Shown: positions 1,027 to 57,719, counted from the first letter of the stretch. The stretch: 64,000 nucleotides of DNA from an uncultured Nitrospiraceae bacterium (GCA_964587655.1 CAZPMT010000001.1:17459-81458); one strand, 5' to 3'. Program-made: numbers and translations. The notes: generated by a model from the letters alone, not told the origin.

Positions 1027-1077
1027 GCGGTTGTAAGAAATGCGGCACAATACGCCCATTCACTCAGCGGCCCTGGA

Positions 1078-1224
1078 ATGGCGTCATTCCCGCGAAAGCG
1101 GGAATCCAGTGCGCCCGTATATCGGTCCATAATACGGGCGCCCGTATATCGGTCCATAATACGGGCGGATGTCGCGGGTCGGCGTGTGTACTCTGGATTC
1201 CCGCTTTCGCGGGAATGACGCCAT
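1078..1224. mobile_element. MITE-like palindromic element with 32-bp perfect terminal inverted repeats ATGGCGTCATTCCCGCGAAAGCGGGAATCCAG and an internal 2x tandem hairpin
   Basis: IR-L 1078-1109 and IR-R 1193-1224 are exact reverse complements; each arm is itself a hairpin (ATTCCCGC-GAAA-GCGGGAAT); internal tandem duplicate CGCCCGTATATCGGTCCATAATACGGGCG x2; a shorter second copy at 57325-57391. Confidence 0.5.
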
Positions 1225-1270
1225 TTTGGGATTGTTTCACAAGCTCTGAGGCGTACTGGCGGGTGTTCTG

Positions 1271-2781: not shown

Positions 2782-3870
2782 ATGGACTCGCGTGAACGAG
2801 TGTTTCGCACGCTGGCGTTTGAGGAGCCGGACCGGGTTCCAATCGACCTGTGGCTATCAAGCGGGATGCGGGAAAAGCTGACGGGCGCAGGATGGCCGTC
2901 CTATGAGGCGCTTCTCGATTCGTACGACGTGGACTTGCGCTACATCGAGGGGCCTCAGTACGCAGGTCCGGCGTTGCGGACCTTCGCCGACGGTACTGAC
3001 GAGGACCTCTGGGGCGTGCGACGGCGGACCGTGGTCGCGGCAGTCGGTGACGGAACGGAGACGTACAAGGAAGTCGCGTGGTCGCCGCTCGCGGACGCGC
3101 GGTCCGTCGAAGAGGTCGACGCGTACGGGCACTGGCCGTCGCCGGACTGGTTCGACTACGGCGGAATCGAGCGTCAATGCGAAGCCATCCGGCGCGGAGG
3201 GCGGGTCGTCGTGTTCATGGGAGACCGCATGAATCGCCTCGCCCAACTAAAGCCTGCCATGTACATCCGAGGCGTCGAGCAGATCCTGTCGGACATGCTC
3301 ATGAATCCGGAGATTGCCGCGGCGATCTTCGCGCGAATTCGGGATTTCTACCTCGCCTACGCGGAACGTATTTTCGAGGCGGCACGCGGAAAACTCGATA
3401 TGCTTCTCATGGGCGATGATTTTGGTTCTCAGCAGGCCCCGCTGGTTTCTCCTGAGATGTGGATTGATTTTCTGGGCGCGGGCTTCGAAAGCTTCATCGC
3501 GATTGCGAAGCACTATGGCCTGCGGGTCATGCACCACACGTGCGGCAGCGTTCGTCCGCTTGTGCCTCTGATGATCGAGCGCGGGCTGGACGTTCTTCAG
3601 TCGCTTCAGCCAGAAGCCGCGGACATGGATGCGGGAATGCTCAAGCGGGAATTTGGAAAGAGGCTCGCGTTTCACGGCGGGATCTCGATCCAGAAGACGC
3701 TTCCGTTCGGAACGCCGCGCGAAGTGCGGGACGAAGTGCGGGATCGCATACGGGCGCTGGCGCCGGGCGGAGGCTACATCTTATGCACCGCCCACAACAT
3801 CCAGGCCGATACGCCGGTGGAAAACGTGCGGGCGCTACTTGACGCATACCTCGAGTTTAGCGAATATTGA
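2782..3870 (+). CDS. uroporphyrinogen decarboxylase (URO-D) family protein (MtaA/CmuA-like)
   Basis: N-terminal RVFRTLAFEEPDRVPIDLW and overall URO-D-like TIM-barrel sequence pattern; 362 aa. Confidence 0.6.
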   Translation: MDSRERVFRTLAFEEPDRVPIDLWLSSGMREKLTGAGWPSYEALLDSYDVDLRYIEGPQYAGPALRTFADGTDEDLWGVRRRTVVAAVGDGTETYKEVAWSPLADARSVEEVDAYGHWPSPDWFDYGGIERQCEAIRRGGRVVVFMGDRMNRLAQLKPAMYIRGVEQILSDMLMNPEIAAAIFARIRDFYLAYAERIFEAARGKLDMLLMGDDFGSQQAPLVSPEMWIDFLGAGFESFIAIAKHYGLRVMHHTCGSVRPLVPLMIERGLDVLQSLQPEAADMDAGMLKREFGKRLAFHGGISIQKTLPFGTPREVRDEVRDRIRALAPGGGYILCTAHNIQADTPVENVRALLDAYLEFSEY

Positions 3871-3871
3871 C

Positions 3872-3895
3872 GACAAGGGGTTGCAACCCCTTGTC
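3872..3895. repeat. 24-bp perfect palindrome GACAAGGGGTTGCAACCCCTTGTC (copy 1 of 4)
   Basis: exact palindrome 2 bp after the stop of the upstream URO-D gene and 24 bp before the start of the next; further copies at 15387-15410, 38494-38517 and 49276-49299 (1 mismatch). Confidence 0.85.
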
Positions 3896-3919
3896 TGTAT
3901 CTTCCTGAAAGGAAACGAT

Positions 3920-15372: not shown

Positions 15373-15386
15373 TACGATCTCCTATG

Positions 15387-15410
15387 GACAAGGGGTTGCA
15401 ACCCCTTGTC
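15387..15410. repeat. 24-bp palindrome GACAAGGGGTTGCAACCCCTTGTC (copy 2)
   Basis: exact copy; ~17 bp after the upstream gene stop (15427) and ~40 bp before the downstream start (15347). Confidence 0.85.
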
Positions 15411-15426
15411 GTCCGTCCACCAAGTT

Positions 15427-16174: not shown

Positions 16175-18367
16175 ACGAAGTTCCGTCTCCGATCCCAACG
16201 GCTGCATTCCGGCCGCGTCCATCCGTTCGACCGGTGGCATGGTCCCCGCGATAAACGCTTCGCGAAACGATCCGCCTTCGACCCCCGTATTCCGGTCCAC
16301 CTGGAAAAAGGTGACGCCATCGGGCACTTCGAAATCCTGCACCGGCAGGCCTTCCTCCGCGGCAATCATGAAATCTGTCCAGACGGGGTTGGCCAGGCGT
16401 CCGCCCGTAAAATCCTTCCCGTGGCCTAGGGGCCGGTTGTCACGATAACCGATCCAGACCACGCATGTGAAATCGGTTGTGAACCCGCAGAACCAGACGT
16501 TCCGGCTCTCATTGCTCGTGCCCGTTTTCCCGCCGCGTGTGCGGCCCGGTTCCGCCTTGTCCCATTGGGCCTGCGTATTGGCGCCCGTGCCGAAACGGCA
16601 TACGCCCTGCATCAAGTAGGTGAGCACGTAAGCCACGTTCGCGTTCATGACCTCTTCGCGCGCGGCAGGTTTAGTCATGCCGGAAACGGTGACGCCGTCG
16701 CGGTTCCGGATTCGCGCGATCATCACTGGGTCATAGCGGACGCCTCCGTTCGCGAAGCACGAGTAGGCGACGCAATGATCGATAACGGTAACGTCCGGCG
16801 AGCCGAGCGCAATCGTGAGTCCCACGGCGTTATCGATGGGCGTTCGGATCCCGGCGCGTTCGAGGAGCGACCGCACCTGCGGCATCCCTAACCGTTCGAC
16901 GAGTTTGATCGAGACGATGTTGATCGATTTCGCGAGCGCATTACGCAGCGTAATCGGGCCTTGGTAGTCGCCGCCGAAGTTCTTGGGCGTCCACACGTTT
17001 CCCCACGGATCCACGCGGACGAACGGCTCGTCGACCTCGATGTCGGAAGGGGTCATGCCGTTTGCGATGGCGGTGGCCCAGACGAACGGTTTGATGCTTG
17101 AACCGGGCTGGCGCCGGGCCTGCGTGGCGGTGTTGTACTTCTCTTGTTCGAAGTCGCGTCCGCCTACCATCGCGCGAATGTATCCCTTGCTGCCGGGACG
17201 GTTGTCGATACAGACGAGCGCCCCGGTCACGGGCGTGAACTCGCTCTCCTTGCCGTCGCGTTTGAGTGCTTCGCGCTTCTTGGCGTCGAAGTCATCGAGC
17301 GCCTTGAAAAGGCTCTGCTCGGCGGCCTGCTGCATGCGCCAATCGAGGGTCGTGCGGACCTCGAGGCCTTCCTGAAAGACTTCGGTCTTATCGGCCTGAC
17401 TCAGCAGATACTGGCGGATCTCCTCGACGAAATACGGCGCCTTGAACTTGTTCGGCTCCCAGATTCCTTTGCCGTCCGCGGCCAACTGCTGCCGCTTCTC
17501 CGGCGTCATGACCGAATCCTCGACGGATTCCTTGATCGCGGCGTCGTATTCCTGCTGGGTGATGAACTGGTTTTCGAGCATCTGCTGGAGAACGATGTTG
17601 CGTCGCTGGCGCGAGTTTTCCAGGTAGTGAAACGGCTCGTTCTTGTTCGGCGACCGCGGCAAGCCGGCCAGCAACGCCGCCTCGCCGAGTGTCAATTGCC
17701 AGCAGTGCTTGCCGAAATACTGTTGTGAAGCCGCCTCGACTCCATAGGCGCTCACACCGAGGAACACCTGGTTCAGGTACAACTCGAGAATCTCGTCCTT
17801 CGTGAAATCCCGCTCGATCTGAAGCGCGATCAGGGCTTCGCGGAGTTTCCGTTTCACGGTCCGCTCCTGTCCCACCTCGAGCGGCTCGACGTTCCGGACC
17901 ACCTGTTGCGTGATGGTGCTTCCCCCGCGCATACGCTGCCCCGACAGTAACGATGAAACGAACGCGTTCAGGATCGCGTCCGGACGCACCCCCTTATGCT
18001 GGTAGAAGGTGTCATCTTCGGTGGCCAGAAACGCCTTCTGCACGTACAACGGGATCTCCGACAGGTTCACCAACTGGCGCTGCTCGATCGAGAACTCGCC
18101 CAGAAGTTCGCCATCCGCTGAGTACACCTTGCTGCCGACTTTCGGCCGGAACGTCTCGAGGGCCTGGATCGCGCTCTTCGTGTCGTTCAAGATCCACACA
18201 AACGCCCCGAGCGCCGCGCCCCAGCCCGCGGCGAGTAGGAGCATGCCCGCAAGGAACAGACCCGCGCAACCGCGCTTTCGAGGAAGCAAGAGGGCGGTTG
18301 TATCCACAGTTTGTCGTGGCTTGACAAACTGTGCGGCGGTTTCGCTTGAGGCGTCCATTGATCGCAT
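16163..18367 (-). CDS. penicillin-binding protein 1A family (bifunctional GT51 transglycosylase / transpeptidase)
   Basis: GT51 motif ATEDDTFYQHKGV, transpeptidase SSIKPF (SxxK), N-terminal TM anchor. Confidence 0.85.
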   Translation of the reverse strand: MRSMDASSETAAQFVKPRQTVDTTALLLPRKRGCAGLFLAGMLLLAAGWGAALGAFVWILNDTKSAIQALETFRPKVGSKVYSADGELLGEFSIEQRQLVNLSEIPLYVQKAFLATEDDTFYQHKGVRPDAILNAFVSSLLSGQRMRGGSTITQQVVRNVEPLEVGQERTVKRKLREALIALQIERDFTKDEILELYLNQVFLGVSAYGVEAASQQYFGKHCWQLTLGEAALLAGLPRSPNKNEPFHYLENSRQRRNIVLQQMLENQFITQQEYDAAIKESVEDSVMTPEKRQQLAADGKGIWEPNKFKAPYFVEEIRQYLLSQADKTEVFQEGLEVRTTLDWRMQQAAEQSLFKALDDFDAKKREALKRDGKESEFTPVTGALVCIDNRPGSKGYIRAMVGGRDFEQEKYNTATQARRQPGSSIKPFVWATAIANGMTPSDIEVDEPFVRVDPWGNVWTPKNFGGDYQGPITLRNALAKSINIVSIKLVERLGMPQVRSLLERAGIRTPIDNAVGLTIALGSPDVTVIDHCVAYSCFANGGVRYDPVMIARIRNRDGVTVSGMTKPAAREEVMNANVAYVLTYLMQGVCRFGTGANTQAQWDKAEPGRTRGGKTGTSNESRNVWFCGFTTDFTCVVWIGYRDNRPLGHGKDFTGGRLANPVWTDFMIAAEEGLPVQDFEVPDGVTFFQVDRNTGVEGGSFREAFIAGTMPPVERMDAAGMQPLGSETELRGLF
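18305..18333. repeat. 29-bp split palindrome CACAGTTTGTC-N7-GACAAACTGTG (copy 1 of 3), inside the 5' end of the PBP1A ORF
   Basis: exact 11-bp arms; copies at 19838-19866 and 20139-20167. Confidence 0.8.
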
Positions 18368-18509
18368 ACGGAGAGCTTACCATTCCATGTTTTTGCGCTG
18401 CAAAGGCGTGACGGCACGCCGCAACAAGGGTGTTAATCCCCATCGGTGGCCGATGGATGCATGACCCTGAATTCGGCAGTTGAAACCGAGAGGAATCGTC
18501 CGAACGCTG

Positions 18510-18603
18510 GACGAGGCGGACTCTATGGACGAAATGGACGTAACCCCGCAGGAGAGCCTTTTCGGTGTCCACGTCGTCCATAAAGTCCATGCCGTCCATC
18601 ATT
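18510..18603. repeat. ~95-bp imperfect hairpin element built from 9-bp-periodic GTGGAC / GTCCAC half-sites (4 per arm)
   Basis: reverse complement aligns closely with 52950-53042; arms contain (R)TGGAC-N3 repeated four times with period 9. Confidence 0.7.
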
Positions 18604-20122
18604 GAGGCTGTCGGAAGCTCACTTCGCCGAGGGTTGCCGAGATCATCATGAATACGGCGCAGAACACGCATCCCAGAACCGCCAGCGCGAGCAGATTGGG
18701 CGCCATGTGCCGCTGCAGCAGGAAGACCGCCGCGCTCGCAACCGCCGAAGCGAAACTAATGCGAATCAGGGACGCCCAAGGAAACGACCAGCGCAGGTGG
18801 CGACGTGATGCCAAGGCCAGGAGCACGGCCAGTACGGCGTTCGCGGCGAGGCGGGCCATGCCGCAACCCACATAGCCGTACGTGCCGATGGCCAGCCTGT
18901 TGATGACGAGATTCACGGCGATGCTGACAACCGTAATCGCCAGCAGCGTCCCGGTACGCTTGGCGAGATGGAGACCGAACGAGGCGTAATAGCTCAAGCC
19001 ATAGACAAGAGCGGCCGCGACGAGCCAAGGGGCCACCAGATACGCGGCCCGATACTCCAATCCTGTGAGCGTGAACATGACGTGATGGCCCAGCACGGCC
19101 AGCATTGCGCATAGCGGGAGGCAGAACAGGAGAAACTGGCGCGTCAGTTGGCGCAACAGATCCTCCGTGGCCTCTCTGCCCTTTGTTTCGTAGAGCGCGG
19201 TCACCGCGGGAAACACGGCCACCATCAAAGTGTGGAGGACCATGCTAATGGGTTGTTCGATAAGCTGGCACGCCGCGGCATAGGCGCCCACCATGGCGTC
19301 GCCCCGGAAGTACTTCAAGAGGTAACGGTCCGTATTCCCCAGGAAGAAATTCAGGATGAGCGTGCCCAGAATGGGCAGCCCATAAAGAAGGCATTCCTTC
19401 AATAAGGCCTTCTGCGCGGACGTGAGAGAAAGGGGAATGGGATGAACGAGATCGCGTCGCATCAATGAAAGGGCGATGACTATCGAGGCGAGCCCTAGTC
19501 CGCACAAGAACCCCACGACGCCGGTCCCGGAAAGCCAAAGTACGAGAAGCCCAAGGGGCAAGCGTAACACGGCGTTCGAGGCGGCGGCCACGGAGTAGGC
19601 CCACGGTTTGCCTTTTGCGCGGGCTGTCGCCAGACCCAACTCCATGAGACTGTTTCCGACGAACACGAGAGCGGCCACACCGAGAAGGCTACGGTAAGAT
19701 CCGAAGAGGGATTCAGGTCCGGCGGCCCACACAATCCCAAGCAGAACAAGGCTGCCGCCAATGCCGGCCCAGCGCAGCAGGGCCACGACGGAGTTGAACG
19801 CAAAAGGGTCGGCCCCGGCTCCTCCTTCCTCCTTGGAACAGTTTGTCGCCGCTTGACAAACTGTGGCGTAACGCGGGTAGAAGCGCAACAGGAGGATGGT
19901 CAGCCAGATCGCGCCGGTCGTAGTCAGGAACATCACGAGGCGCATCGTAAGGTCGTAACGTCCGAAATCCTCCGGCGATAACACAAACCGGGTCAGCACG
20001 GCGGTCGTCACAAACGCCATAACGGCGGGAACGACGCGTCCGGGCAGGTAGGCAAGGGTGTCCTTGCCGATCGAGGCCAGCGTGGGCGTGTTATCTGGAA
20101 TCGCGGGATCTTGGGAAGTCAT
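18599..20122 (-). CDS. polysaccharide biosynthesis protein, Wzx-like oligosaccharide flippase (MOP superfamily)
   Basis: ~12-14 predicted TM helices, typical MOP flippase composition; contains an in-frame copy of the 29-bp palindrome encoding a hydrophilic loop (TVCQAATNCS). Confidence 0.6.
   Translation of the reverse strand: MTSQDPAIPDNTPTLASIGKDTLAYLPGRVVPAVMAFVTTAVLTRFVLSPEDFGRYDLTMRLVMFLTTTGAIWLTILLLRFYPRYATVCQAATNCSKEEGGAGADPFAFNSVVALLRWAGIGGSLVLLGIVWAAGPESLFGSYRSLLGVAALVFVGNSLMELGLATARAKGKPWAYSVAAASNAVLRLPLGLLVLWLSGTGVVGFLCGLGLASIVIALSLMRRDLVHPIPLSLTSAQKALLKECLLYGLPILGTLILNFFLGNTDRYLLKYFRGDAMVGAYAAACQLIEQPISMVLHTLMVAVFPAVTALYETKGREATEDLLRQLTRQFLLFCLPLCAMLAVLGHHVMFTLTGLEYRAAYLVAPWLVAAALVYGLSYYASFGLHLAKRTGTLLAITVVSIAVNLVINRLAIGTYGYVGCGMARLAANAVLAVLLALASRRHLRWSFPWASLIRISFASAVASAAVFLLQRHMAPNLLALAVLGCVFCAVFMMISATLGEVSFRQPQ
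19838..19866. repeat. 29-bp split palindrome ACAGTTTGTC-N7-GACAAACTGTGG (copy 2), in-frame inside the flippase ORF
   Basis: sequence match. Confidence 0.8.
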
Positions 20123-21750
20123 AGGACGGAAACCTGTTCACAGTTTGTCGTGATTTGACAAACTGTGGGAACGCTTTCCCGCGGCGCGTCTTCCTGCTCG
20201 GTGGCGATACCGTACCGGATCGCAAGGCCGAAGAACGTCCAGATGACGATACCGTGTCTCATGTTGATTAAGAACAGGGATTCGGCCATACCGGAAAGCA
20301 ACGTTGCAAGGAAACCGAACATGGCCGCCGTGACAAGCTCATGGTCCAATTCCCTACCTTCAAGCCGCTTGCGCAAACGGTAAAGCATCCACCCCACGCT
20401 ACCGATCAGGAACACCGCCGCCGCCGTGCCGAGCAGACCGAATTCGGCGAGCATCAGCAGGTACATGTTGTGCGGGTGGGGCAGGGTGATATGCCCGCGG
20501 TAGTAGAAGACGAATCCGACGTCGCTGAAGCCCTCGTAGGCCCAACCGTACTCGGTTTCGAGCCGGGGGTACATCGCGCCGGGTCCCGTGCCGAACAGGG
20601 GATGGTCAAGCCACACGAGGGCCGCTGTCCGCATGCTCTCCGTGCGGCCTCCGATACTTTGCACTTCGTAGTATCCGCGCGACCAGAAGCGGCTGAAGTC
20701 GTACGTCATGAACAGATAGGCCATGCCGCAGATCAGCACGGCGAAAAAGCCGCCTATCAGGAACAGTTCGACGCCGCGAGACTTTTTCCTCGAGAGCAAC
20801 AGGTAGGCGAAGACGAGCATCAGGGTTATGCCGGAGACCCCCAAGGCCGTGCGAGAGAGAGAGAACAGGATGCCAATGAATATCGCTCCAGCCGCGGCCA
20901 GGTACAAGCCGCGAAAGAGCGCCCCCTTCTGTCGCACGCCAAGGACCACGCAGATGACCATGAATATCTGGAGCAGCGCGGCGGCCGTGTTCGGATGCCC
21001 AAGCGGGGTCCTTCCGCGCGCGAGATCCAGGGTGCCGAAACCGAAGCCCGTCCAGCCGAGAAGTCCAATGACACGTTCCGGCATCAGGCCGAACACGGCC
21101 AGGATAAGGCCGGTGGCGGCGGCCAGGCCGATCATCGCCTGCATGCACACTCGAGAATGAGACTTGGAAAGGTTGGTCATTGGAATGACGGCCACGAGCG
21201 CCATCGGGAACACGATCGCTCCCAGGGAAAGGACTTCGGCAATCGCCGACCTATCCTTCACGTAAGGGTCCCAAAACTGGTTGAGAAAGAGGGAAAAGGC
21301 GCAAAGACCCGCAAACAACAGAAGTCCCGCAACAAACCTGCGAGCGAAACGCTGCTCGGGCGAAACATCCCCGGCGCGCGCGTACCGGTCCCAGGGAACG
21401 GTCAGCGCGAGCAGGAAGACGCATGGAACCGTAAGCCAATATGCAACGGGGATGCGGAAACGCTCGTTGATGACGATCGAGAAGATATCGTCAATCCGGT
21501 TGAGACCCGCAAAACAGTACAGCGCGGGCAGGAGCAGGATAATTCCCGGCGCGCCCACCATCTTATACGCTGCGGCCACAAGCAGTATACCGAATGCCAC
21601 CAGCGCGGCCGCGCCGTAGTTCATCGCGGCTATCACGCCCGCCGCGACGCAGAGAACCACCGTCACGGGCAGAAGTATGCGTGCCGCCTGTTGCCGCTTC
21701 CCGTGCAGGTACAGTGCCGGGCCTGTGCCCAAGTCTCGGCTCTGCGCCAT
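20119..21750 (-). CDS. O-antigen ligase / polymerase family (Wzy_C-like) integral membrane protein
   Basis: many TM helices, a large periplasmic loop and an FSLSRTALG-type segment typical of the WaaL/O-antigen ligase family; start chosen at MAQSRD (internal to the track ORF). Confidence 0.55.
   Translation of the reverse strand: MAQSRDLGTGPALYLHGKRQQAARILLPVTVVLCVAAGVIAAMNYGAAALVAFGILLVAAAYKMVGAPGIILLLPALYCFAGLNRIDDIFSIVINERFRIPVAYWLTVPCVFLLALTVPWDRYARAGDVSPEQRFARRFVAGLLLFAGLCAFSLFLNQFWDPYVKDRSAIAEVLSLGAIVFPMALVAVIPMTNLSKSHSRVCMQAMIGLAAATGLILAVFGLMPERVIGLLGWTGFGFGTLDLARGRTPLGHPNTAAALLQIFMVICVVLGVRQKGALFRGLYLAAAGAIFIGILFSLSRTALGVSGITLMLVFAYLLLSRKKSRGVELFLIGGFFAVLICGMAYLFMTYDFSRFWSRGYYEVQSIGGRTESMRTAALVWLDHPLFGTGPGAMYPRLETEYGWAYEGFSDVGFVFYYRGHITLPHPHNMYLLMLAEFGLLGTAAAVFLIGSVGWMLYRLRKRLEGRELDHELVTAAMFGFLATLLSGMAESLFLINMRHGIVIWTFFGLAIRYGIATEQEDAPRESVPTVCQITTNCEQVSVL
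20139..20167. repeat. 29-bp split palindrome CACAGTTTGTC-N7-GACAAACTGTG (copy 3), at the ligase/flippase gene junction
   Basis: sequence match; encodes the C-terminal TVCQITTNC of the upstream ORF. Confidence 0.8.
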
Positions 21751-21862
21751 TGTCACGAATCCTTCTTCTTGTCGCGGCGGTCTAAGGCCAAGAGGAACTG
21801 TCCAAGCAACGCCAAGAGGATGGTACGCCGTAGCAAGGCAGCGTCGCAAACACTCTGGCTAC

Positions 21863-22025
21863 GTGGCTCCGTGGCCGCGGCGTCCCCGCCGCGCTTCGGC
21901 ATACGCACGTCGCGTCGAGCCATTCTTGACGTGGCCGCGGCGTCCACGCCACGTTTCGGCATACGCACGTTACGTCGAGCGGTTTTTGACGGGAACGCGG
22001 CGGGGACGCCGCGGCCACGATACCA
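21863..22025. repeat. tandem ~59-bp direct repeat (2 copies) ending in an inverted partial copy; CGTGGCCGCGGCGTCCNCGCCGCG hairpin family
   Basis: TGGCCGCGGCGTCCCCGCCGCGCTTCGGCATACGCACGTCGCGTCGAGC repeated, then CGCGGCGGGGACGCCGCGGCCACG; related hairpin at 50583-50690. Confidence 0.7.
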
Positions 22026-22096
22026 TTGGTTACGGGTCGAGCATTTCCGTTAGAATTGGTGCGGGAGTATTACACGAGGGAGAAAGGATTGAGAAC

Positions 22097-49236: not shown

Positions 49237-49275
49237 GGTTACCTCCATTCGGCAAATCGTCAAGATTACTCTATA

Positions 49276-49299
49276 GACAAGGGGTTGCAACTCCTTGTC
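49276..49299. repeat. 24-bp palindrome GACAAGGGGTTGCAACTCCTTGTC (copy 4, one mismatch)
   Basis: 20 bp after the stop of the lipoprotein gene (49319) and ~40 bp before the DapA-family start (49236). Confidence 0.8.
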
Positions 49300-49318
49300 T
49301 TGGTTTCGGGTCTGTGCG

Positions 49319-50517: not shown

Positions 50518-50582
50518 TTGATCCGCCTCCATCCGTACATCCAGACCGATGCGATCATCCTATCACAGCGGCTCGGCGCGAA

Positions 50583-50690
50583 TCACTGGCATCGTGGCCG
50601 CGGCGTCCTCGCCGCGTACTCGTCAGGAGCCGCTTTAAGCGAAGCATGTGCGCCGAAACGCGGCGAGGACGCCGCGGCCACGATGCCAGT
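50583..50690. repeat. 33-bp perfect inverted repeat CACTGGCATCGTGGCCGCGGCGTCCTCGCCGCG with 42-nt loop
   Basis: arms 50583-50615 / 50658-50690; same motif family as 21863-22025. Confidence 0.75.
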
Positions 50691-50938
50691 GAACTTGCGC
50701 AGGGGTTAGCGGATGAAGTAAGGGGGAGAGAAACAGCGGGAGCAGCGTCGGGAATGCTCTATCTTTAGGGGGTTATGACTGCCCCACTCGACGTCCATGT
50801 GAGACGTTATATGAGCTGTTCTCGAAACGCTGCTCCAACTGACAGAGCCATTATACCACATTTTGCCGCTGTCAACGGCGGGACAAAGAAAAAATCTGGC
50901 ACGGCTGCAACCCGTTGGCACAGACTGATGTGGAAGCA

Positions 50939-51493: not shown

Positions 51494-52818
51494 GATGGCC
51501 TCCGCCTCACCAGTAACTCGACCCAGCCCATCCACAACGCCACCACGAATACGATGTAGATTCCCTGCCAGATGTATTCGTGAGAGAACTTGAACCACTT
51601 GCCGCCGCTATCGATCGCCCCCACCACCGCCAGACACGCAAGCCGGAGCGCGTTGACCCAGTAGAGAATCGGAAGACCAATAAAGATCCCGGCAAAACGC
51701 TTCCACCAACGCGCCGGAAACGCCAGGATCGCCGCAAGAAAAATCGCCATCGCCTGGACCGCGCCGCAGTCCGGGACGACAATAAAGTTGAACCCTACGT
51801 CTCGCCGCGCCTTCGGGTTTCCCTGTGCGGCTGCGGCTTCCTGCTTGGCCTGTTCTTCCAACTGGGCTGCTTCCGCGCGCTTCTGTTCGATCTGCATCGC
51901 GCGGGCATCCTCCGGCAGCGAAGTATCCTTCTCCAATTCGGCCAACTGCGACTTCGTGTCGGCAAGACGCCGCCCGAAACCCGGTTTCAGCACAAAAGAA
52001 ACCAGCGGGCCGGTATCCCGCTGTTTCATTTGTGCAAGTTTCATCTCCGCGGCCTGGATCTGTTGCGAAGGTGCCGGCTCAGCATACTCGTACGCAATGA
52101 ATCCGCCGATGAGAAGCAACAGTATTCCGACAAGGGCGATGAGGATACCCGCAGTTCGCCAACCTTTGAGGGCGTATATGGTTGCTCCGCACGCAACACT
52201 GACCAGCCCCATTCCGAGCAAGAGCAGCGCACCGGGTATCGAAAGCAGCGCGAGGCAACCGAATGCAGGTACCCAGAACAATAACATGGGATATTCCCGT
52301 TGCAGATCGTAGAATCCCTGGGACGCCTGCAGGATCGCGTCCGATTTCAGCCGCGCCACCTCCTGCTCTGCATCCTTCATGCTCCGCCGGTACGTCGCCG
52401 CCTGGTACTCCCACGCCTCCCACGGAGTGAGCGGCGGCTCCGCGCTCGAGCCGGCCTTCAACGCGATCGGCGGCGGAAGCTTCGGCGCCTCTTCCCCGCG
52501 GCCTAACGCCTCCAACGCCGCCCGCACGGCAGCTTCCCGGCCCCGATACCGTTCCGCGCTGCCCACTTCGCATGAATGACCGACGCGCTTCAAGAGAACC
52601 GTCGTGCTCCGCGCCACCTGAAGGAGGTACCAATCATTGAATTTCGTCCAACGGGCCAGTTCGTAGCCAAAGAGCAGGACAAACACGCTGATCACGAACA
52701 CCGACACGAACATGATGGTTCTGCGCCGCAACGCCTTCTTGCGCCCTGCGTCGGAATGCCCGGATGACGGAGGATTCTCCGGATTCTCTTGCGTCAGTGT
52801 TTCAACGGAATCGGACAT
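51490..52818 (-). CDS. membrane protein with C-terminal exosortase/archaeosortase-like catalytic region (putative)
   Basis: C-terminal FIVVPDCGAVQAM...ARWWKR...YWVNALRLACL resembles the exosortase Cys / Arg / N-x-x-R signature; long hydrophilic coiled-coil N-terminal region. Confidence 0.35.
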   Translation of the reverse strand: MSDSVETLTQENPENPPSSGHSDAGRKKALRRRTIMFVSVFVISVFVLLFGYELARWTKFNDWYLLQVARSTTVLLKRVGHSCEVGSAERYRGREAAVRAALEALGRGEEAPKLPPPIALKAGSSAEPPLTPWEAWEYQAATYRRSMKDAEQEVARLKSDAILQASQGFYDLQREYPMLLFWVPAFGCLALLSIPGALLLLGMGLVSVACGATIYALKGWRTAGILIALVGILLLLIGGFIAYEYAEPAPSQQIQAAEMKLAQMKQRDTGPLVSFVLKPGFGRRLADTKSQLAELEKDTSLPEDARAMQIEQKRAEAAQLEEQAKQEAAAAQGNPKARRDVGFNFIVVPDCGAVQAMAIFLAAILAFPARWWKRFAGIFIGLPILYWVNALRLACLAVVGAIDSGGKWFKFSHEYIWQGIYIVFVVALWMGWVELLVRRRPS

Positions 52819-52949
52819 GCTTCGGATATGCTCCTGTTTGCAGCCGCAGCTTTGCGCCAGAGGATATCAGGTACTCGGACCGACCTGCAAACAGACCTGC
52901 GCCATGTCGGCAATCGATTCCCTACGGATTCGGACACTGCAAACAATAA

Positions 52950-53042
52950 GTGGACGGCGTGGACTTTGTGGACGATGTGGACGCCGAAAAAGATCACCTG
53001 CAGGGTTGCGTCCACTTTGTCCACAACGTCCACGCCGTCCAC
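52950..53042. repeat. ~93-bp hairpin element of 9-bp-periodic GTGGAC/GTCCAC half-sites (copy 2, inverted orientation relative to 18510-18603)
   Basis: GTGGACGGCGTGGACTTTGTGGACGATGTGGAC..loop..GTCCACTTTGTCCACAACGTCCACGCCGTCCAC. Confidence 0.75.
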
Positions 53043-53084
53043 TACTTGGACAAACCCAACTGGCTCCGATTGCCGAATCTAGGT

Positions 53085-54052
53085 CTAGGTACGCACCGAA
53101 CGCCGCAATGCTTCAAGCGCGGAGAGAAAGTCCGCCGGAGGCGGCGTCGAGAAGATCATCTCCTTGCCGGTCCCCGGGTGGACGAACCCGAGGCGTTCCG
53201 CATGGAGGGCTTGGCCTTCGAGGCCTCCGAGCGCCGCCGCCACGGCAGGATCATGCTTCCAAGCAGAGTAATCGACAACGCCGTATACCGGGTCGCCCAA
53301 CACGGGACGTCCCGCGTATCTCAAGTGTACGCGGATCTGGTGCGTGCGCCCGGTCTCGAGGACAAGGGCGACGAAACTTGCGTGGCCGAATCGTTCGAGC
53401 ACCTCGAATCGCGTTACGGCGTCGCGTCCGCGAATGCCCGTGACCGACATCCGCGCCGGATCGGTCATGCTTCGTCCTATGGGGACATTGATCCGCCCGC
53501 GATCTTCGGGAAACTCCCCTCGCACAAGCGCTAGATAACGGCGATCAAAGGAATGCTCGCGGGCCTGTTCCGAAAGGCCGGCGAACGCCCGCGCGGTCTT
53601 CGCCATCACAAGCAGGCCGGATGTGAATCGGTCGATGCGATGTACGATGCCGGGCCGCGTCATGTCGGTTCCCGTCGATTGGAAATCCGGGCAATGGTGC
53701 AGGACGGCATTGACGAGCGTGCCGGTGAAGTGGCCCGGCGCGGGGTGTACAACCAGTCCGGAAGGCTTGTTGACGACGACAACGTCGGAATCCTGATACA
53801 CGATATCGAGGGGGATATTTTCAGGCTGCGGTATCGCCGGTGGCGGCGGAGGGATCTCGACTGCGACCTTGTCGCCGGGGGTCATAGCCCGGCCGGGGCG
53901 CGTGCACACGCCGCCGTTCACGGTAACAAGCCCGTCCTTGATCAGCTTCTTGATGAACGATCGCGACGCGTCTTCGATCACCTCGGTCAGATAGACGTCG
54001 AGCCGGAACTTGTCGAATTCCTCTCCGGCGATATCCTCAAAGGAGCGTTGCG
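53085..54052 (-). CDS. rluD: 23S rRNA pseudouridine synthase, RluD/RluA family
   Basis: S4 domain plus catalytic HRIDRFTSG (HRLD-type aspartate motif); GTG start overlapping the xylB stop. Confidence 0.8.
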
Positions 54053-55563
54053 ACACGGCGGAACCCCGGCGCCAGGGCGCGATAACCGGCCTGGTATTCT
54101 GCGAACCATGCGTCGTACTCGCGCGACCGCCCCGCGTCCGGCGCGCAGGAGTCCACGACGCTGATCGTGGCGTCGCAGGCTTCCTCGACGGAACCGTACA
54201 TCCCCGTGGCGACTGTCGCCAGCAACGCCGCGCCGTACGCCGGACCTTCATCCACGTTGATGAGGACCAGCGGGGCCTTGTTTACATCCGCTTGGATCTG
54301 CCGCCACACCGCGCTCCGCGCGCCTCCGCCGGACGCCCGCACCTGCTCGATTGGAACGCCCATCCCACGGATGATCTCGAGACTGTCGCGCATGCCGAAC
54401 GCAACGCCCTCGAGCACGGCGCGTGCCATGTGCGCCCGCGTATGGCGCAGCGACAACCCGATGAACGCCCCCTTTGCGAACGGGTCCTTGTGCGGCGTCC
54501 GTTCCCCGGTCAAGTAAGGCAGAAACGTGAGGCCTTCCGCGCCGATCGGAATCCGCGCGGCGGCCGCCGTGATGTACTCGTATGGGTCCGCGCCCGTTTC
54601 GGCGGCCACGGCCTTCTCCCCCTGGCACAGCGCGTCGCGAAACCAGCGCAATGAGCCGCCGGCGCTTAACATCACGCCCATCACGTGCCATTTCCCCGGT
54701 ACCGAGTGGCAGAACGTGTGGACGCGCCCCTGCGGGTCCATGCTCACCTTGTCGCTGAACGCGAACACGACCCCGCTCGTGCCGACGGTCGAAGAGATCA
54801 CGCCGCTGCGCACAATACCGCACCCGACGCCGCCCGCAGCCTGATCGCCGCCGCCGGCCACCACGGGAATCCCTTGCGGGAGCCCCGTCTTCGCGGCGGC
54901 CTCCGCGCTGAGCTTGCCGGTCACTTCCGGACCTTCAAAGGCCCGCGGCATGAAATCGCGCGGCACGTCCAGGATCGACATCAGTTCGGTGTGCCACGCG
55001 CGCTTCTTCACGTCGAACAGAAGCGTACCCGACGCATCGGCGACGTCGGTCGCGAATTCCCCCGTCAATTCAAAGCGGATGTAGTCCTTTGGAAGGAGGA
55101 CCTTCCGGACCTTCTCGTATACGTCCGGCTCGTTGTCCCGCAGCCAGAGGATTTTCGGCGCCGTGAACCCCGTCAGCGCGGGATTGCACACCATTTCAAT
55201 CAGCTTCTCCGCGCCAACCTTCGACGTGATATCGTCGCACTGTTTCGCCGTGCGCTGGTCGCACCAGAGGATGGCCGGGCGAAGGACGCGGTTTGACGCA
55301 TCGAGGAACACCGAGCCGTGCATCTGGCCCGTCAGACCGAGGCCCTTGACGTCGGCGGCCTTCACCCCCGGTGCATGCGCCAGTCGCGCCAGCGCATCGA
55401 GCGCCGCTTGTTTCCAGTCCGCGGGATCCTGCTCGGCCCAGTTCGGCTTCGGGCTGTGCAACGGGTACTCGACCAGCGACTTCGCAACTACCTTTCCCGA
55501 TGCATCGACGGCTACGGCCTTCGTTCCGGTCGTTCCCACGTCAAGGCCTACTACAAGCGCCAT
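54037..55563 (-). CDS. xylB: xylulokinase (FGGY-family carbohydrate kinase)
   Basis: MALVVGLDVGTTGTKAV N-terminus, FGGY N- and C-terminal domains, 508 aa. Confidence 0.8.
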   Translation of the reverse strand: MALVVGLDVGTTGTKAVAVDASGKVVAKSLVEYPLHSPKPNWAEQDPADWKQAALDALARLAHAPGVKAADVKGLGLTGQMHGSVFLDASNRVLRPAILWCDQRTAKQCDDITSKVGAEKLIEMVCNPALTGFTAPKILWLRDNEPDVYEKVRKVLLPKDYIRFELTGEFATDVADASGTLLFDVKKRAWHTELMSILDVPRDFMPRAFEGPEVTGKLSAEAAAKTGLPQGIPVVAGGGDQAAGGVGCGIVRSGVISSTVGTSGVVFAFSDKVSMDPQGRVHTFCHSVPGKWHVMGVMLSAGGSLRWFRDALCQGEKAVAAETGADPYEYITAAAARIPIGAEGLTFLPYLTGERTPHKDPFAKGAFIGLSLRHTRAHMARAVLEGVAFGMRDSLEIIRGMGVPIEQVRASGGGARSAVWRQIQADVNKAPLVLINVDEGPAYGAALLATVATGMYGSVEEACDATISVVDSCAPDAGRSREYDAWFAEYQAGYRALAPGFRRVATLL

Positions 55564-55672
55564 GTCTCATCTCCCTCTCGCGTTCGCAATACGGTACTTC
55601 AGACCCCCTGTCTCATACAAAAAAGCAGGGCTAATAACTTAGCCCTGCTCGTGCTCAAATCGTGATGGAGTA

Positions 55673-55867
55673 CTACGACGACTCGCTTATCGAGGCCACG
55701 TTCCGCGCGATCGCCTTTGCCAGCTTGCGACGCCGCTTCTCGCTCGGCTTCTCGTAATGCTTGATCTCCTTGATGCGTTGCATGATGCCCTCCTTATTGC
55801 ACTTCTTCTTGAAACGCCGAAGTGCTTTCTCGAAGGGCTCATCCGGCTTAACCCGCACTTTCGTCAC
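55673..55867 (-). CDS. rpsU: 30S ribosomal protein S21
   Basis: MTKVRVKPDEPFEKALRRFKKKCNKEGIMQRIKEIKHYEKPSEKRRRK, 64 aa. Confidence 0.9.
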   Translation of the reverse strand: MTKVRVKPDEPFEKALRRFKKKCNKEGIMQRIKEIKHYEKPSEKRRRKLAKAIARNVASISESS

Positions 55868-56004
55868 GCAGTTTCAACCTCCTCTCAAGAAAGATTTCGC
55901 GGACTTACCCGCTCGGGCCCAATCAGACCCGCAAATTGACCAAAACCCCGCACCCTTGAACAAAGAAGTATCTTACCAAACTTCCGCTCTCTTGTCAAAA
56001 GTGT

Positions 56005-56457: not shown

Positions 56458-56962
56458 CGTAGTCACTCATGCTGCTCGCCGCTCCCGCGAAAGCCCAGCG
56501 CGCGCCGCGAACGTCCAATCCGTCCGATCCGTCCAATACGTCCACGAGGAACCCTCAGCCTAACGCACGACGCGCGCCCCTTGAACGGATTCCTAAGGCC
56601 TCAACGCCAAGACGCCAAGATCCGCCGCCCTTCTTTGTGACGTCGCGTCTTTGCGTTATGCCGTTCGGTTGCCCCTATGCCGCGCCGCAAGAATATGCTT
56701 AATCTGCGTAAAATATAACGGTCGTAAATTGAATACCCCTCGTTTCGCGGGCGGATTCAAGCGGCAAGCGCATCCCCGCCCAACGACCCCAAACCCCACC
56801 CCTTGTCCCGCCATGTACCGTCCATCAGCCGCCTACCGCCATCCACAACCACAAGCCCCCCACCCACTTACCTACAGCCTCCAGCCTACAGTCTCCAGCC
56901 TGACAGTGGAACGCCGTGGGCTATATTATAGAGGGACTTGATCCGAAACCCGGATAGCCACG

Positions 56963-57005
56963 GTACTTTTCGTCCACCAAGTCCACCAGGTCCACTAAGT
57001 CCACA
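56963..57005. repeat. five tandem 9-bp units GTCCACNNN (GTCCACCAA GTCCACCAG GTCCACTAA GTCCACAAG GTCC); related 4-unit array CGTCCRATM at 56513-56548
   Basis: direct inspection; same half-site and 9-bp period as the hairpin elements at 18510-18603 and 52950-53042. Confidence 0.7.
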
Positions 57006-57324
57006 AGGTCCTTATCGCCTACAACATCGCCCTGCTCCAGGTCATGCTCAACCGCGCAGCCGTCTCCATGCGAAACGCCCCCCTTGTCGACGACACCGTA
57101 GCGTCCACCGACGCATACCACATGAAATCGTCCAAACCCAGCGCGCATCTCGAAGCATTCACCAGAATTTCGCGCGAGTACAGGCATTTCGCGACAATGG
57201 TCAAGGCGTCCGAGCCCGTCGAGCCCGACCCGGCGGACTTCTTCAACTACAAAACCCGTACCGCGATCGATACCGACCTTGACCCAGACAACGATCTATT
57301 TCTTCATCTGTGCCACCCCACATC

Positions 57325-57391
57325 GTCATTCCCGCGAAAGCGGGAATCCAGGACCGCACGCACGCTGGATTCCCGCTTTCGCGGGAATGAC
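57325..57391. mobile_element. short copy of the MITE-like element: GTCATTCCCGCGAAAGCGGGAATCCAG inverted repeats separated by 13 bp
   Basis: arms 57325-57351 / 57365-57391 identical to the TIRs of the element at 1078-1224. Confidence 0.5.
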
Positions 57392-57719
57392 GGCGAGGGC
57401 GGGGATGACGACTGGCGCCGGTTTTTCCTTGTCATTATGTCCCTTCCTGCGGCTGCGAACTACTGCAATTTCTTCCTAAGAAAACAAGGTCTTCTTTGTG
57501 TTCTCTGAGTTCTTTGTGGTTGAAATTACACGAATCTGTCCGTTTGGCTGCGGCTATGCCGCGTTGCGTTCTATACATTCCTTCTGTTTGATTCATCGCT
57601 GCGAAACGGAGATGATTGTCGCGGTCTTGACGCGAAGCAACGCGTTGGACATGAGCGAAGGTGGTCCGTGTCGGTGGTGATTGACTTGATTCCTGATTTC
57701 GCAGCGAAAGGACGGGGGC

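What the first reader, a model, noticed from the sequence alone, without database searches (positions are those of the whole stretch)
18510..18603. Hairpin elements and arrays built from 9-bp-periodic GTGGAC half-sites
Two ~95-bp imperfect palindromes (18510-18603 and 52950-53042, in opposite orientation) each carry four GTGGAC-N3 units per arm around a ~17-nt loop. Two further arrays have the same half-site and 9-bp period but no inverted partner: 56963-57005 (five units) and 56513-56548 (four CGTCCRATM units). All sit in intergenic regions between same-strand genes. A strict 9-bp period places successive sites on progressively rotated helix faces. That is unusual for simple REPs and reminiscent of iteron-like or multimeric protein-binding arrays.
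Basis: seen in the sequence. Interest (0 to 1): 0.55.

Follow-up and report, generated by a model that had tools for sequence, protein, structure and literature searches.

The report
Dispersed hairpin repeats of 9-bp modules
These four loci are non-coding copies of a hairpin-forming repeat built from a strict 9-bp module (RTGGAC plus three variable bases); the module occurs in many bacterial phyla and, in nearly all members examined of the main group, inside one conserved gene often found next to type I restriction-modification genes, so this looks like an undescribed REP-like element whose binding partner is unknown.

Summary
The window, from a Candidatus Hydrogenedentota genome, has four loci with 9-bp-periodic RTGGAC. 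E1 (18498-18599) and E2 (52950-53051) are hairpins and about 78% identical copies in opposite orientation. A3 (56512-56548) and A4 (56972-57013) are solo arrays. Chance predicts 0.1 three-unit matches; 14 are seen. No Rfam family matches.

The motif is not local. The same hexamer and period occur in at least 120 genome loci from about ten phyla. Arm order there was imposed by the search pattern; it was confirmed independently in gene loci. Twelve of those 120 loci carry the motif inside one gene, the 'four helix bundle suffix' protein (TIGR04258/PF05635, the family related to the DGR protein Avd), which often lies in type I restriction-modification operons. There the arrays encode a disordered GxxGxx...STxSTx linker under nucleotide-level constraint. 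The window has no such gene.

The hexamers are conserved, but the spacers do not pair in register. Sequence, not just the stem, appears to be selected.

My best reading is a REP-like dispersed repeat whose hexamer arrays are binding sites for a multimeric protein. The 4HB-suffix protein is the leading candidate, but this is untested. Replication iterons, DnaA boxes, intrinsic terminators and a coding artefact are not supported.

The parts
18498..18599 (.). E1, a hairpin element. It has one inverted unit GTCCGA (18498-18503), a left arm of 4 x (RTGGAC+N3) at 18507-18539, a 27-nt inter-arm segment at 18540-18566, and a right arm of 4 x GTCCAY at 18567-18599. The last base is shared with the TGA stop codon of the 507-aa ORF at 18599-20122 (minus strand, flippase-like by my reading).
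52950..53051 (.). E2, a homologous hairpin element in the opposite orientation. The left arm is 4 x GTGGAC at 52950-52982, the 27-nt inter-arm segment is 52983-53009, the right arm is 4 x GTCCAC at 53010-53042, and there is an extra unit TTGGAC at 53046-53051. It lies 42 nt after the stop of the RluD-like ORF (53085-54251, minus strand) and 131 nt before the start of the exosortase-like gene at 52818.
   Evidence: (inverted repeat I3, 88% complementary). The exosortase-like product has a weak PF09721 hit.
56512..56548 (+). A3, a solo array of four CGTCCRATM units. It reads GTCCA on the plus strand. It lies 55 nt after the stop of the tadA-like ORF (56005-56457) and has no inverted partner. It is unstructured as RNA.
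56963..57013 (+). A4, a solo array of four perfect GTCCAC-N3 units (56972-57004) with degenerate units on both sides. It has the same orientation as A3 and lies 427 nt downstream of it. A promoter-like site lies just upstream at 56900-56927.

Best explanation
E1, E2, A3 and A4 are non-coding members of a family of dispersed repeats found across phyla. The family is built from a 9-bp module: the hexamer RTGGAC plus three variable, C-poor bases.

The usual form is a 'hairpin type' element. Three to five modules are followed, after 0-56 nt, by the same number of inverted modules, and the RTGGAC arm is 5' on either strand. E1 and E2 are two copies of one local sub-family, inserted in opposite orientations just after stop codons of co-directional genes. 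A3 and A4 are solo arrays.

The same module is a near-universal part of the main group of the 4HB-suffix gene (TIGR04258/PF05635), which often sits in type I restriction-modification operons. PF05635 is the family related to Avd, the accessory protein of diversity-generating retroelements (DGRs). In that gene the module sits in frame as a disordered linker.

How it most likely works: the conserved hexamers, spaced every 9 nt, are recognition sites for a multimeric, sequence-specific nucleic-acid-binding protein. The best candidate is the 4HB-suffix protein, because it nearly always carries the motif in its own gene. When transcribed, hairpin copies also form long stem-loops at mRNA 3' ends and would act like REP elements on transcript ends.

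Shown here: the anatomy, the copy homology, the distribution across phyla, the fixed polarity, the link to the gene, the nucleotide-level constraint and the lack of spacer pairing.

Inferred, not shown: that a protein binds the arrays, which protein it is, any effect on mRNA, and how copies spread.
For: 1. Real and non-random: 14 three-unit matches against 0.1 expected.
2. E1 and E2 are 78% identical over about 101 nt, including the loop, and their flanks are unrelated.
They come from Planctomycetota, Verrucomicrobiota, Lentisphaerota, Chlamydiota, Chlorobiota, Acidobacteriota, Hydrogenedentota, Sumerlaeota, Desulfobacterota, Nitrospinota, Chloroflexota and some Clostridia.
4. The period is strictly 9 bp. 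The first base of the hexamer is A in 52% and G in 44% of units. Spacers are C-poor on the TGGAC strand.
5. Twelve of the 120 loci have the hairpin in or next to one gene family, identified as TIGR04258 plus TIGR02436/PF05635. All 30 aligned members, which are 75-86% identical to the reference sequence across phyla, have the G..G..ST.ST linker.
6. In 76 genes from metagenomes, chosen by protein similarity and not by DNA pattern, linker arrays are present in 59 (TGGAC orientation) and 57 (GTCCA orientation) cases, always in that order. Upstream arrays are 24 to 1 in the TGGAC orientation and tail arrays 17 to 1 in the GTCCA orientation. Polarity is therefore a real feature.
7. Nucleotide-level constraint: codon use in the linker differs sharply from the rest of the gene. 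The linker is predicted to be disordered, with pLDDT below 50.
8. Spacers are not complementary in register, so the hexamer sequence is what is kept.
9. Intergenic copies are a separate non-coding class. The inter-arm gap modulo 3 is 42/36/34 for intergenic copies, against 67 of 68 equal to 1 for gene-borne copies. The window gaps are 27 nt, which is 0 modulo 3.
10. The window organism is Hydrogenedentota. That phylum has both hairpin loci and the gene (P0043).
11. PF05635 is the family related to the DGR protein Avd (PMC10053308). The closest solved folds are 2GSC and 2RLD. That Avd binds nucleic acid is my recollection, not a result here.
12. The window also holds several other palindromic repeat families, so this genome tolerates REP-like elements.
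Against: - No 4HB-suffix homologue lies in the 64-kb window, and the rest of the source genome could not be read.
- In about 450 kb flanking 4HB-suffix genes only 9 further arrays occur. Having the gene does not by itself lead to many intergenic copies.
- No binding or catalytic activity is known for this protein subfamily.
- A divergent Prevotella homologue has no arrays. The gene can therefore exist without the motif, and the motif may be a passenger.
- No target-site duplication is visible, and no mobilising enzyme was found.
- Any effect on mRNA ends is untested, and there is no U-tract after the hairpins.
- Genome-level co-occurrence of the gene with intergenic arrays was not measured.
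Confidence: 0.5

Rival explanations
1. This is a MITE-like non-autonomous transposon. The arrays would be multi-site terminal inverted repeats bound by an unidentified transposase, and E1 and E2 would be cargo-less copies. The 4HB-suffix and restriction-modification modules would be cargo or insertion hosts.
For: - Polarity is fixed from outside to inside.
- Within a genome, copies share loops and flanks: E1 and E2, the two elements in L132, and a Clostridia MAG family.
- The inter-arm content is variable.
- Arrays bracket gene modules, as [>]N[<] and [>]S[<].
- The elements sit in intergenic positions, with fewer in divergent (promoter) regions: 8 of 45.
Against: - E1 and E2 have no target-site duplication.
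- No transposase or recombinase recurs in about 0.9 Mb around 120 hairpins.
- In the Clostridia family the arrays are internal, and the element ends are a different 27-bp inverted repeat (CCTGGATTCACC...). There the arrays are not the termini.
- Unit number varies in the manner of slippage, up to 34 units.
Confidence: 0.2
2. This is a purely structural RNA or single-stranded-DNA hairpin, acting as a transcript 3'-end stabiliser or terminator. No sequence-specific partner is involved, and the hexamer is just a convenient stem.
For: - The predicted folds are strong, with z-scores of -4 to -10.8.
- E1 and E2 lie directly after stop codons of co-directional genes.
- Convergent and tandem contexts predominate among the genome loci.
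Against: - The same hexamer is kept across about ten phyla, while spacers are free and not paired in register. Selection for structure alone would not conserve sequence.
- Solo arrays exist: A3, A4, and the upstream and tail arrays of the gene.
- The hairpins are not followed by a U-tract, and the consensus terminator scan of 52500-57800 did not flag E2, A3 or A4.
- The arrays are kept inside a coding region.
Confidence: 0.15
3. The arrays act as recombination or linker modules. They would serve as portable short homology, and as stop-free in-frame linkers, that promote fusion, deletion, inversion or shuffling of gene modules in mobile type I restriction-modification / 4HB cassettes. Intergenic hairpins would be landing pads or leftovers.
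For: - Arrays sit at module junctions: before, inside and after the 4HB-suffix gene, and between the HsdM and HsdS parts of a fused 829-aa ORF.
- One reading frame per arm is nearly free of stop codons, from the logo.
- The gene is found in unrelated contexts, packed tightly between other genes.
Against: - Intergenic hairpins show no phase bias and no remnants of the gene. They are therefore not decayed linkers.
- Only about 30% of genes have an upstream array and about 22% a tail array, and rarely both.
- This idea does not explain why the hexamer itself is conserved.
Confidence: 0.1
4. These are clusters of DnaA boxes or replication iterons.
For: - GTCCAC is the core of the high-GC DnaA box TTGTCCACA, and a DnaA box is 9 bp long (established knowledge).
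- One E2 unit reads TTGTCCACA.
- One phage lineage carries TGTGGACAA dyads.
Against: - The flanking positions do not fit a DnaA box. The position that should be T2 is C in 42% of units and T in only 26%. The position that should be A9 is A in only 25%.
- Half the units are ATGGAC, which breaks the conserved C8.
- There are four loci in 64 kb and no origin context.
Confidence: 0.03
5. The periodicity is a coding artefact: the arrays belong to a peptide-repeat gene, either collagen-like or a 4HB-suffix linker.
For: - Direct GTGGAC-N3 arrays in viral contigs are mostly antisense collagen-like GPQ repeats.
- The 4HB-suffix gene translates the arrays.
Against: - The window has no homologue of that gene.
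- ORFs over the four loci have no family match, apart from one sub-threshold DUF3299 hit.
- The inter-arm gap is 0 modulo 3, not the 1 modulo 3 seen in 67 of 68 coding copies.
- E1 starts at a stop codon.
Confidence: 0.02

Closest known systems
REP / BIME / REPIN elements with their RAYT partner (Enterobacteria, Pseudomonas)
   Same: They are short imperfect palindromes scattered in intergenic regions, often just after stop codons. They come as single units and as inverted doublets that form long hairpins. The family is genetically tied to one protein-coding gene that carries copies at its own locus.
   Different: REPs have no 9-bp internal module and differ between species. They carry a conserved GT[AG]G at the foot, and their partner is a Y1 HUH transposase. 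Here the same hexamer is kept across phyla, GTAG is not conserved (it is present by chance beside E2 and absent at E1), and the linked gene is a four-helix-bundle protein with no known catalytic motif.
Rickettsia palindromic elements (RPE; recalled from Ogata et al. 2000, not tested here)
   Same: They are palindromic repeats of about 100 bp found both between genes and in frame inside genes. In genes they are translated into tolerated extra peptide segments.
   Different: RPEs are restricted to one lineage and have no short periodic module. They are scattered over many genes rather than being a fixed part of one gene family.
Operator or centromere arrays of ribbon-helix-helix and related proteins (omega 7-bp heptads, MetJ 8-bp metboxes, ParR/ParG sites)
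   Same: They are contiguous short repeats with a period shorter than a helical turn, in direct and inverted arrangements and in variable number. The core is conserved while the junctions are free.
   Different: Those arrays sit at one or a few promoters or centromeres of a plasmid or regulon, and their binding protein is known. Here the arrays are dispersed and chromosomal, occur across phyla, sometimes lie inside coding sequence, and no binding protein has been demonstrated.
23S rRNA intervening sequences that encode PF05635 proteins (Leptospira, Coxiella; from memory)
   Same: A PF05635 four-helix-bundle gene is physically coupled to inverted repeats that can form a long stem. The unit behaves like an inserted selfish cassette.
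   Different: In intervening sequences the stem brackets the gene and lies in rRNA. Here the inverted arrays are inside the gene, between helix 3 and helix 4, and the cassette lies in protein-coding operons, often type I restriction-modification operons.
Cyanobacterial STRR heptamer repeats (from memory)
   Same: They are short tandem oligonucleotide repeats in intergenic DNA of unknown function.
   Different: The period is 7 bp and the unit is fully conserved. There is no inverted partner, no link to a gene, and the repeats are confined to one phylum.

Membership tests
REP/BIME (RAYT-associated) | Dispersed intergenic imperfect palindromes present in several copies | tested here: met
   Four loci lie in 64 kb, all intergenic. 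E1 and E2 are homologous hairpins.
REP/BIME (RAYT-associated) | Conserved GT[AG]G at the foot of the hairpin | tested here: not met
   E2 has GTAG next to its arm, but E1 has ACGC at the same place. There is no such motif in the unit logo.
REP/BIME (RAYT-associated) | A RAYT (Y1 transposase) gene flanked by the repeats | tested here: not met
   No recurrent transposase-like ORF lies within 4 kb of 120 hairpins. The only recurrent family specific to the hairpins is the 4HB-suffix protein; the other recurrent clusters are common kinase/regulator and oxidoreductase families. The window was not scanned exhaustively for Y1_Tnp.
MITE | Terminal inverted repeats | tested here: met
   E2 arms are 88% complementary over 41 nt. 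E1 also has inverted arms.
MITE | Target-site duplication flanking the element | tested here: not met
   The flanks of E1 and E2 show no direct repeat. None is evident in the Clostridia MAG family either.
MITE | An autonomous parent element with the same ends and a transposase | tested here: inconclusive
   None was found in about 1.5 Mb of fetched flanks. Whole genomes could not be searched.
Plasmid/phage replication iterons | Direct repeats of about 17-22 bp next to a rep gene or origin | tested here: not met
   The period is 9 bp. The four loci are chromosomal and sit between housekeeping and envelope-related ORFs (named from the translations). No match to the 4HB gene was found in phages, and only one in plasmids.
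DnaA-box cluster | 9-mers matching TT[AT]TNCACA / TTGTCCACA, including T2, C8 and A9 | tested here: not met
   The logo shows that the flanking positions do not match and that 52% of units are ATGGAC.
Intrinsic terminator | A GC-rich stem followed directly by a U-tract | tested here: not met
   No T-run follows E1 or E2 in either direction. The scan of 52500-57800 did not flag E2, A3 or A4.
Any Rfam family | A score at or above the family's gathering threshold | tested here: not met
   There are no matches at gathering threshold in the whole window. Only sub-threshold generic miRNA-hairpin matches appear at permissive E-values.
Coding linker of the 4HB-suffix gene (TIGR04258) | Arrays lie between the 4HB N-terminal domain and the suffix domain, with inter-arm gap equal to 1 modulo 3 | tested here: not met
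   No homologue was found in the window at E below 0.1. The window gaps are 27 nt, which is 0 modulo 3, whereas 67 of 68 gene-borne copies are 1 modulo 3.
RTGGAC-N3 hairpin family defined here | Hexamer RTGGAC, strict 9-bp period, at least 3 units, and the RTGGAC arm 5' of the GTCCAY arm | tested here: met
   E1 and E2 meet all criteria. A3 and A4 meet all except having a partner arm.
Protein-binding operator-like array (RHH type) | Demonstrated binding of a multimeric protein to successive units | not testable with these tools
   Only indirect support is available: the core is conserved while the spacers are free and unpaired.

The most novel reading that the evidence does not exclude
The RTGGAC-N3 arrays would be the cis-acting sites of a previously unrecognised system spread across phyla. 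In this reading the 4HB-suffix protein (PF05635, the Avd-related family), often linked to type I restriction-modification operons and 70-85% identical across phyla, recognises the arrays in its own gene and at dispersed genomic hairpins. This would be a new protein/repeat partnership analogous to RAYT/REP, but with a non-enzymatic four-helix-bundle partner. It might be involved in spreading the cassette or in controlling restriction-modification.
Probability: 0.3. Interest if true: 0.8.

Novelty: new variant of a known kind. Interest (0 to 1): 0.62.

Why it matters
Dispersed hairpin repeats are usually specific to a species. Here one hexamer, one period and one arm order are shared by Planctomycetota, Verrucomicrobiota, Chlamydiota, Chlorobiota, Acidobacteriota, Hydrogenedentota, Desulfobacterota and others. 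The same motif is also kept at the nucleotide level inside a very strongly conserved gene that often sits in type I restriction-modification operons.

If the link is functional, three things follow:
- The large, uncharacterised PF05635/TIGR04258 family would gain a testable role, namely a defined nucleic-acid ligand.
- It would give a second example, after REP/RAYT, of a repeat family tied to a dedicated protein.
- It would explain a class of low-complexity 'GQSGQ...STKST' linkers that annotation pipelines treat as ordinary protein sequence.

There is also a practical point. One independent assembly contig from the same run ends inside E2; whether this repeat commonly breaks assemblies or seeds spurious ORFs was not examined.

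Tried and rejected
- Rfam, at gathering threshold and at permissive E-values, gave nothing specific.
- Three literature searches (on GTGGAC repeats, TIGR04258 / four helix bundle suffix, and 23S IVS / Avd / REP) found no description of the element.
- A scan of viral contigs for the direct array mostly returned antisense collagen-like GPQ repeats.
- I tried to test arm order in viral contigs by comparing hairpin-type and reverse-type scans. The result was confounded by one phage lineage that carries TGTGGACAA dyads in both arrangements. Arm order was settled instead from gene loci chosen by protein similarity.
- I could not retrieve the source genome. Exact-protein look-ups gave only short Logan contigs, and the 127-kb NCBI contig is not indexed.
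- Synteny comparison with related Hydrogenedentota gave no result. Only rpsU-xylB-rluD is conserved, there are no arrays in those loci, and the E2 position is not syntenic.
- I tested whether the window's A3-A4 interval is a decayed 4HB-suffix gene. There is no homology and no Pfam hit.
- I tested for register-specific covariation of spacers and of the R:Y pair. None remains once spacers are shuffled within elements. The earlier apparent excess (38% against 27.5%) is an effect of composition.
- I compared spacer-triplet usage between gene-borne and intergenic arrays. The correlation is only moderate (0.43-0.48) and not decisive.
- I tested whether the other hairpin in the window (TTCCCGC...GCGGGAA) co-occurs with the arrays or the gene elsewhere. 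There were 0 hits in 3.4 Mb.
- The E1/E2 loop sequence matches nothing in any fetched locus.

Full report
**1.

- E1 has four (R)TGGAC-N3 units at 18507-18539 and four GTCCAY units at 18567-18599.
- E2 has four perfect GTGGAC units at 52950-52982 and four perfect GTCCAC units at 53010-53042.
- A3 (56512-56548) is a solo array of four CGTCCRATM units.
- A4 (56972-57013) is a solo array of four perfect units plus one or two degenerate ones.

GTGGACNNNGTGGAC with up to two mismatches occurs 31 times against 5.4 expected. The three-unit pattern occurs 14 times against 0.10 expected. A chain search finds these six arrays and nothing else in the 64 kb.

The inter-arm stretch is 27 nt in both hairpins. 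E1 on the plus strand aligns with E2 on the minus strand at 79 of 101 positions, including 20 of the 27 inter-arm positions. The flanks are unrelated. Each hairpin carries one extra inverted unit on one side, so the element is asymmetric and the two copies lie in opposite orientations.

Both hairpins fold far better than shuffled sequence as RNA and as DNA. The solo arrays do not fold.

By their translations (names are my reading unless a family hit is cited), the neighbouring ORFs are:
- E1: a flippase-like 507-aa ORF (18599-20122, whose TGA stop shares a base with the last hexamer) and a PBP1A-like ORF.
- E2: an RluD-like ORF (stop 42 nt away) and an exosortase-like gene (weak PF09721 hit).
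- A3 and A4: a tadA-like ORF and a GT2 glycosyltransferase (PF00535).

The window comes from a Candidatus Hydrogenedentota genome. Its xylulokinase is 80-85% identical to named Hydrogenedentes proteins.

**2. The motif is not a local curiosity**

No Rfam family matches. The loci come from Planctomycetota, Verrucomicrobiota (including Akkermansia), Lentisphaerota (Victivallis), Chlamydiota, Chlorobiota (including the isolate Chlorobaculum thiosulfatiphilum DSM 249), Acidobacteriota, Hydrogenedentota, Sumerlaeota, Desulfobacterota, Nitrospinota, Chloroflexota, Armatimonadota and a few Clostridia.

In those loci:
- The period is strictly 9 bp: 215 chains at period 9 and none at periods 6-8 or 10-13.
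- The base before TGGAC is A in 52% and G in 44% of units.
- The three spacer bases are variable but C-poor on the TGGAC strand.
- Arms have 3-5 units as a rule, and up to 34.
- The gap between the arms is anything from 0 to 56 nt.
- Several MAGs have many copies that share loops and flanks, as E1 and E2 do.
- The positions are mostly intergenic, and divergent (promoter) regions are the least common context. My ORF calling there is crude, because ATGGAC and GTGGAC create false start codons.

**3. The key lead is one gene**

I clustered all ORFs within 4 kb of the 120 hairpins. The only recurrent family specific to the hairpins is one protein that overlaps the hairpin itself in 11 loci, or 12 by tblastn. 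The other recurrent clusters are common kinase/regulator and oxidoreductase families.

This protein is the 'four helix bundle suffix domain' protein: NCBIfam TIGR04258 plus TIGR02436, Pfam PF05635 (23S rRNA intervening-sequence protein). More than 8000 homologues were retrieved. The best are 70-85% identical although they come from different phyla.

All 30 aligned members have a linker G(R/Q)xGQxG...STxSTKSTxST at the same place. Many also have an STRSTKSTPST tail. The AlphaFold model shows three helices, a small helical insert, a disordered linker (residues 139-164, pLDDT below 50), then the fourth helix, which is the 'suffix'. The nearest solved folds are 2GSC and 2RLD, both PF05635 members. 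PF05635 is the family related to the DGR accessory protein Avd (PMC10053308).

I then analysed 76 genes from metagenomes that were chosen by protein similarity.
- The linker holds a TGGAC array in 59 genes and a GTCCA array in 57, always in that order.
- Arrays just upstream of the start codon are 24 to 1 in the TGGAC orientation.
- Tail arrays are 17 to 1 in the GTCCA orientation.

The architecture is therefore [>]-N domain-[> <]-suffix-[<]. The arm order, with RTGGAC 5' on either strand, is a real property and not an artefact of my search pattern.

**4. What is under selection**

In the linker, Gly is GGA in 72% of codons against 22% in the rest of the gene. Ser is TCC in 63% against 17%. 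A disordered linker has no reason to fix synonymous sites, so the constraint is on the nucleic acid.

The spacers, in contrast, are not complementary in register. Complementarity is 0.40 against 0.39 after within-element shuffling for intergenic copies, and 0.18 against 0.21 for gene-borne copies. The R:Y pair also shows no register-specific matching. Pairing therefore comes only from the hexamers. What is conserved is the hexamer, the period and the polarity. That pattern argues for sequence-specific, multimeric recognition and against a stem selected merely for stability.

**5. How the window copies relate to the gene**

The window has no homologue of the gene, and ORFs across the four loci have no family match.

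Gene-borne hairpins have an inter-arm gap equal to 1 modulo 3 in 67 of 68 cases. That phase is needed to read xGx and then xST. Intergenic hairpins are spread evenly over the three phases (42/36/34), and E1 and E2 have 27 nt, which is 0 modulo 3. Intergenic hairpins are therefore a genuine non-coding class and not decayed linkers.

A divergent Prevotella member of the gene family (35% identity) has no arrays. The motif was thus acquired within the family, and the array-bearing branch is the one that is nearly identical across phyla.

The gene sits in unrelated contexts, tightly packed between other genes. It is very often in type I restriction-modification operons, as hsdS-[4HB]-hsdR or hsdR-[4HB]-hsdM/S. 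At least 15 of 94 loci have an 80-100% identical hsdM starting a few bases after its stop codon. In three loci a further GTCCA array forms the in-frame linker between the HsdM and HsdS parts of a fused ORF.

Nine bases is three codons, and one frame per arm is almost free of stop codons. The strict period may therefore owe as much to life inside coding sequence as to helical geometry.

**6. Mechanism**

I commit to the following reading. These are REP-like dispersed repeats, and their hexamer arrays are binding sites for a multimeric protein. The best candidate is the 4HB-suffix protein (PF05635, the Avd-related family), which nearly always carries the motif in its own gene. The hairpin copies, when transcribed with the upstream gene, also make stable 3' stem-loops. 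Binding, the identity of the binder, the effect on RNA and the mode of spread are all inferences.

- The MITE reading is weakened by the absence of target-site duplications and of any recurrent transposase. It is also weakened by a Clostridia family in which the arrays are internal to a larger element with different ends.
- The purely structural reading fails to explain conservation of the hexamer across phyla alongside unpaired spacers, or the solo arrays.
- DnaA boxes are excluded by the logo.
- Intrinsic terminators are excluded by the missing U-tract.
- A coding artefact is excluded.

**7. Novelty and limits**

I found no description of the element or of its link to TIGR04258 in Rfam or in the searchable literature. 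That absence is not proof. The kind of element, a dispersed hairpin repeat, is known. The modular 9-bp build, the conservation across phyla and the fixed place in a four-helix-bundle gene often linked to restriction-modification are not, as far as I could find.

The main gaps are these:
- I could not read the rest of the source genome.
- Genome-level co-occurrence was not measured.
- Flanks of the gene elsewhere hold few extra arrays, 9 in about 450 kb. Proliferation, as in this window, is therefore specific to some lineages.

Noticed in passing
window 1077-1225 and 57317-57399: There are two copies of another hairpin repeat, CGTCATTCCCGCGAAAGCGGGAATCCAG paired with its complement. Its six-frame translations give the familiar spurious peptides SFPRKRES, RFRGNDG and IPAFAGMT. 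The first copy has an 83-nt insert containing a perfect 27-bp x2 tandem at 1111-1164. The motif does not occur in any of the 3.4 Mb of fetched loci.
   Followed up: partly
window 3867-3896, 15382-15413, 38489-38522, 49271-49300: There are four copies of a 24-bp perfect palindrome, GACAAGGGGTTGCAACCCCTTGTC. This is another REP-like family in the same genome.
   Followed up: no
window 18305-18333, 19837-19865, 20139-20167: There are three copies of CACAGTTTGTC-N7-GACAAACTGTG. Two of them lie inside the 507-aa ORF at 18599-20122 and the 576-aa ORF at 20119-21849 (flippase-like and O-antigen-ligase-like by my reading), where they are read as '(V)CQxxTNC'. One lies 165 nt from E1.
   Followed up: no
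window 21864-22031 and 50581-50692: These are homologous hairpin elements of about 100 bp built on CGTGGCCGCGGCGTCC.CGCCGCG. The first has a 60-bp tandem duplication.
   Followed up: no
window 36830-38045: A 192-bp unit is repeated five times at 71-75% identity to the reference copy. It is followed by a 12/18-bp TTCGCC/TTCACC-type repeat. This looks like a coding repeat protein on the minus strand.
   Followed up: no
window 56900-56929: A promoter-like site on the plus strand, CTGACA-N16-TATATT, lies about 45 nt upstream of array A4. A4 could therefore lie in a 5' leader.
   Followed up: no
L343 22-4342; also L347, L202, L245, L357: The 4HB-suffix gene is embedded in type I restriction-modification operons, as hsdR-[4HB]-hsdM/S or hsdS-[4HB]-hsdR. 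In L343, L347 and L202 a GTCCA array encodes the linker (SSIESVLSIAST) between the HsdM and HsdS parts of a fused 829-aa ORF. hsdM starts 3-20 nt after the stop of the 4HB gene in at least 15 of 94 loci.
   Followed up: partly
L422 2468-3157 (Prevotella nigrescens NZ_CP082843.1): A divergent protein annotated as 'four helix bundle suffix domain-containing' (35% identity) has no RTGGAC arrays and no low-complexity linker. The arrays were therefore acquired within the family. This rests on one outgroup only.
   Followed up: partly
L248-L337 (IMG/VR contigs): One phage lineage has a conserved non-coding region with TGTGGACAA(T) dyads. They have 2-3 units at a 9-bp period, occur in both inverted arrangements, and are often followed by 'ttttaaatcg'. 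TGTGGACAA is the reverse complement of the high-GC DnaA box TTGTCCACA, so this is probably an origin or regulatory region. It differs from the bacterial hairpins.
   Followed up: partly
L243 1-42 (Logan contig from run SRR13723397): An independent assembly of the same organism breaks exactly inside the right arm of E2. This fits either a repeat or a palindrome that disturbs assembly.
   Followed up: no
L135, L182, L183, L198, L204, L210, L218 (Clostridia MAG): In this genome the RTGGAC arrays are the inner part of a larger element of about 150 bp. That element has its own 27-bp outer inverted repeats (CCTGGATTCACCGCCAAAT..TGAAA). The same array module is thus carried on different backbones in different genomes.
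   Followed up: partly
L216 1139-1364: A hairpin lies next to a remnant of the suffix domain only (46 aa, 54% identity), with no N-terminal domain. This may be an intermediate or decayed form of the gene.
   Followed up: no
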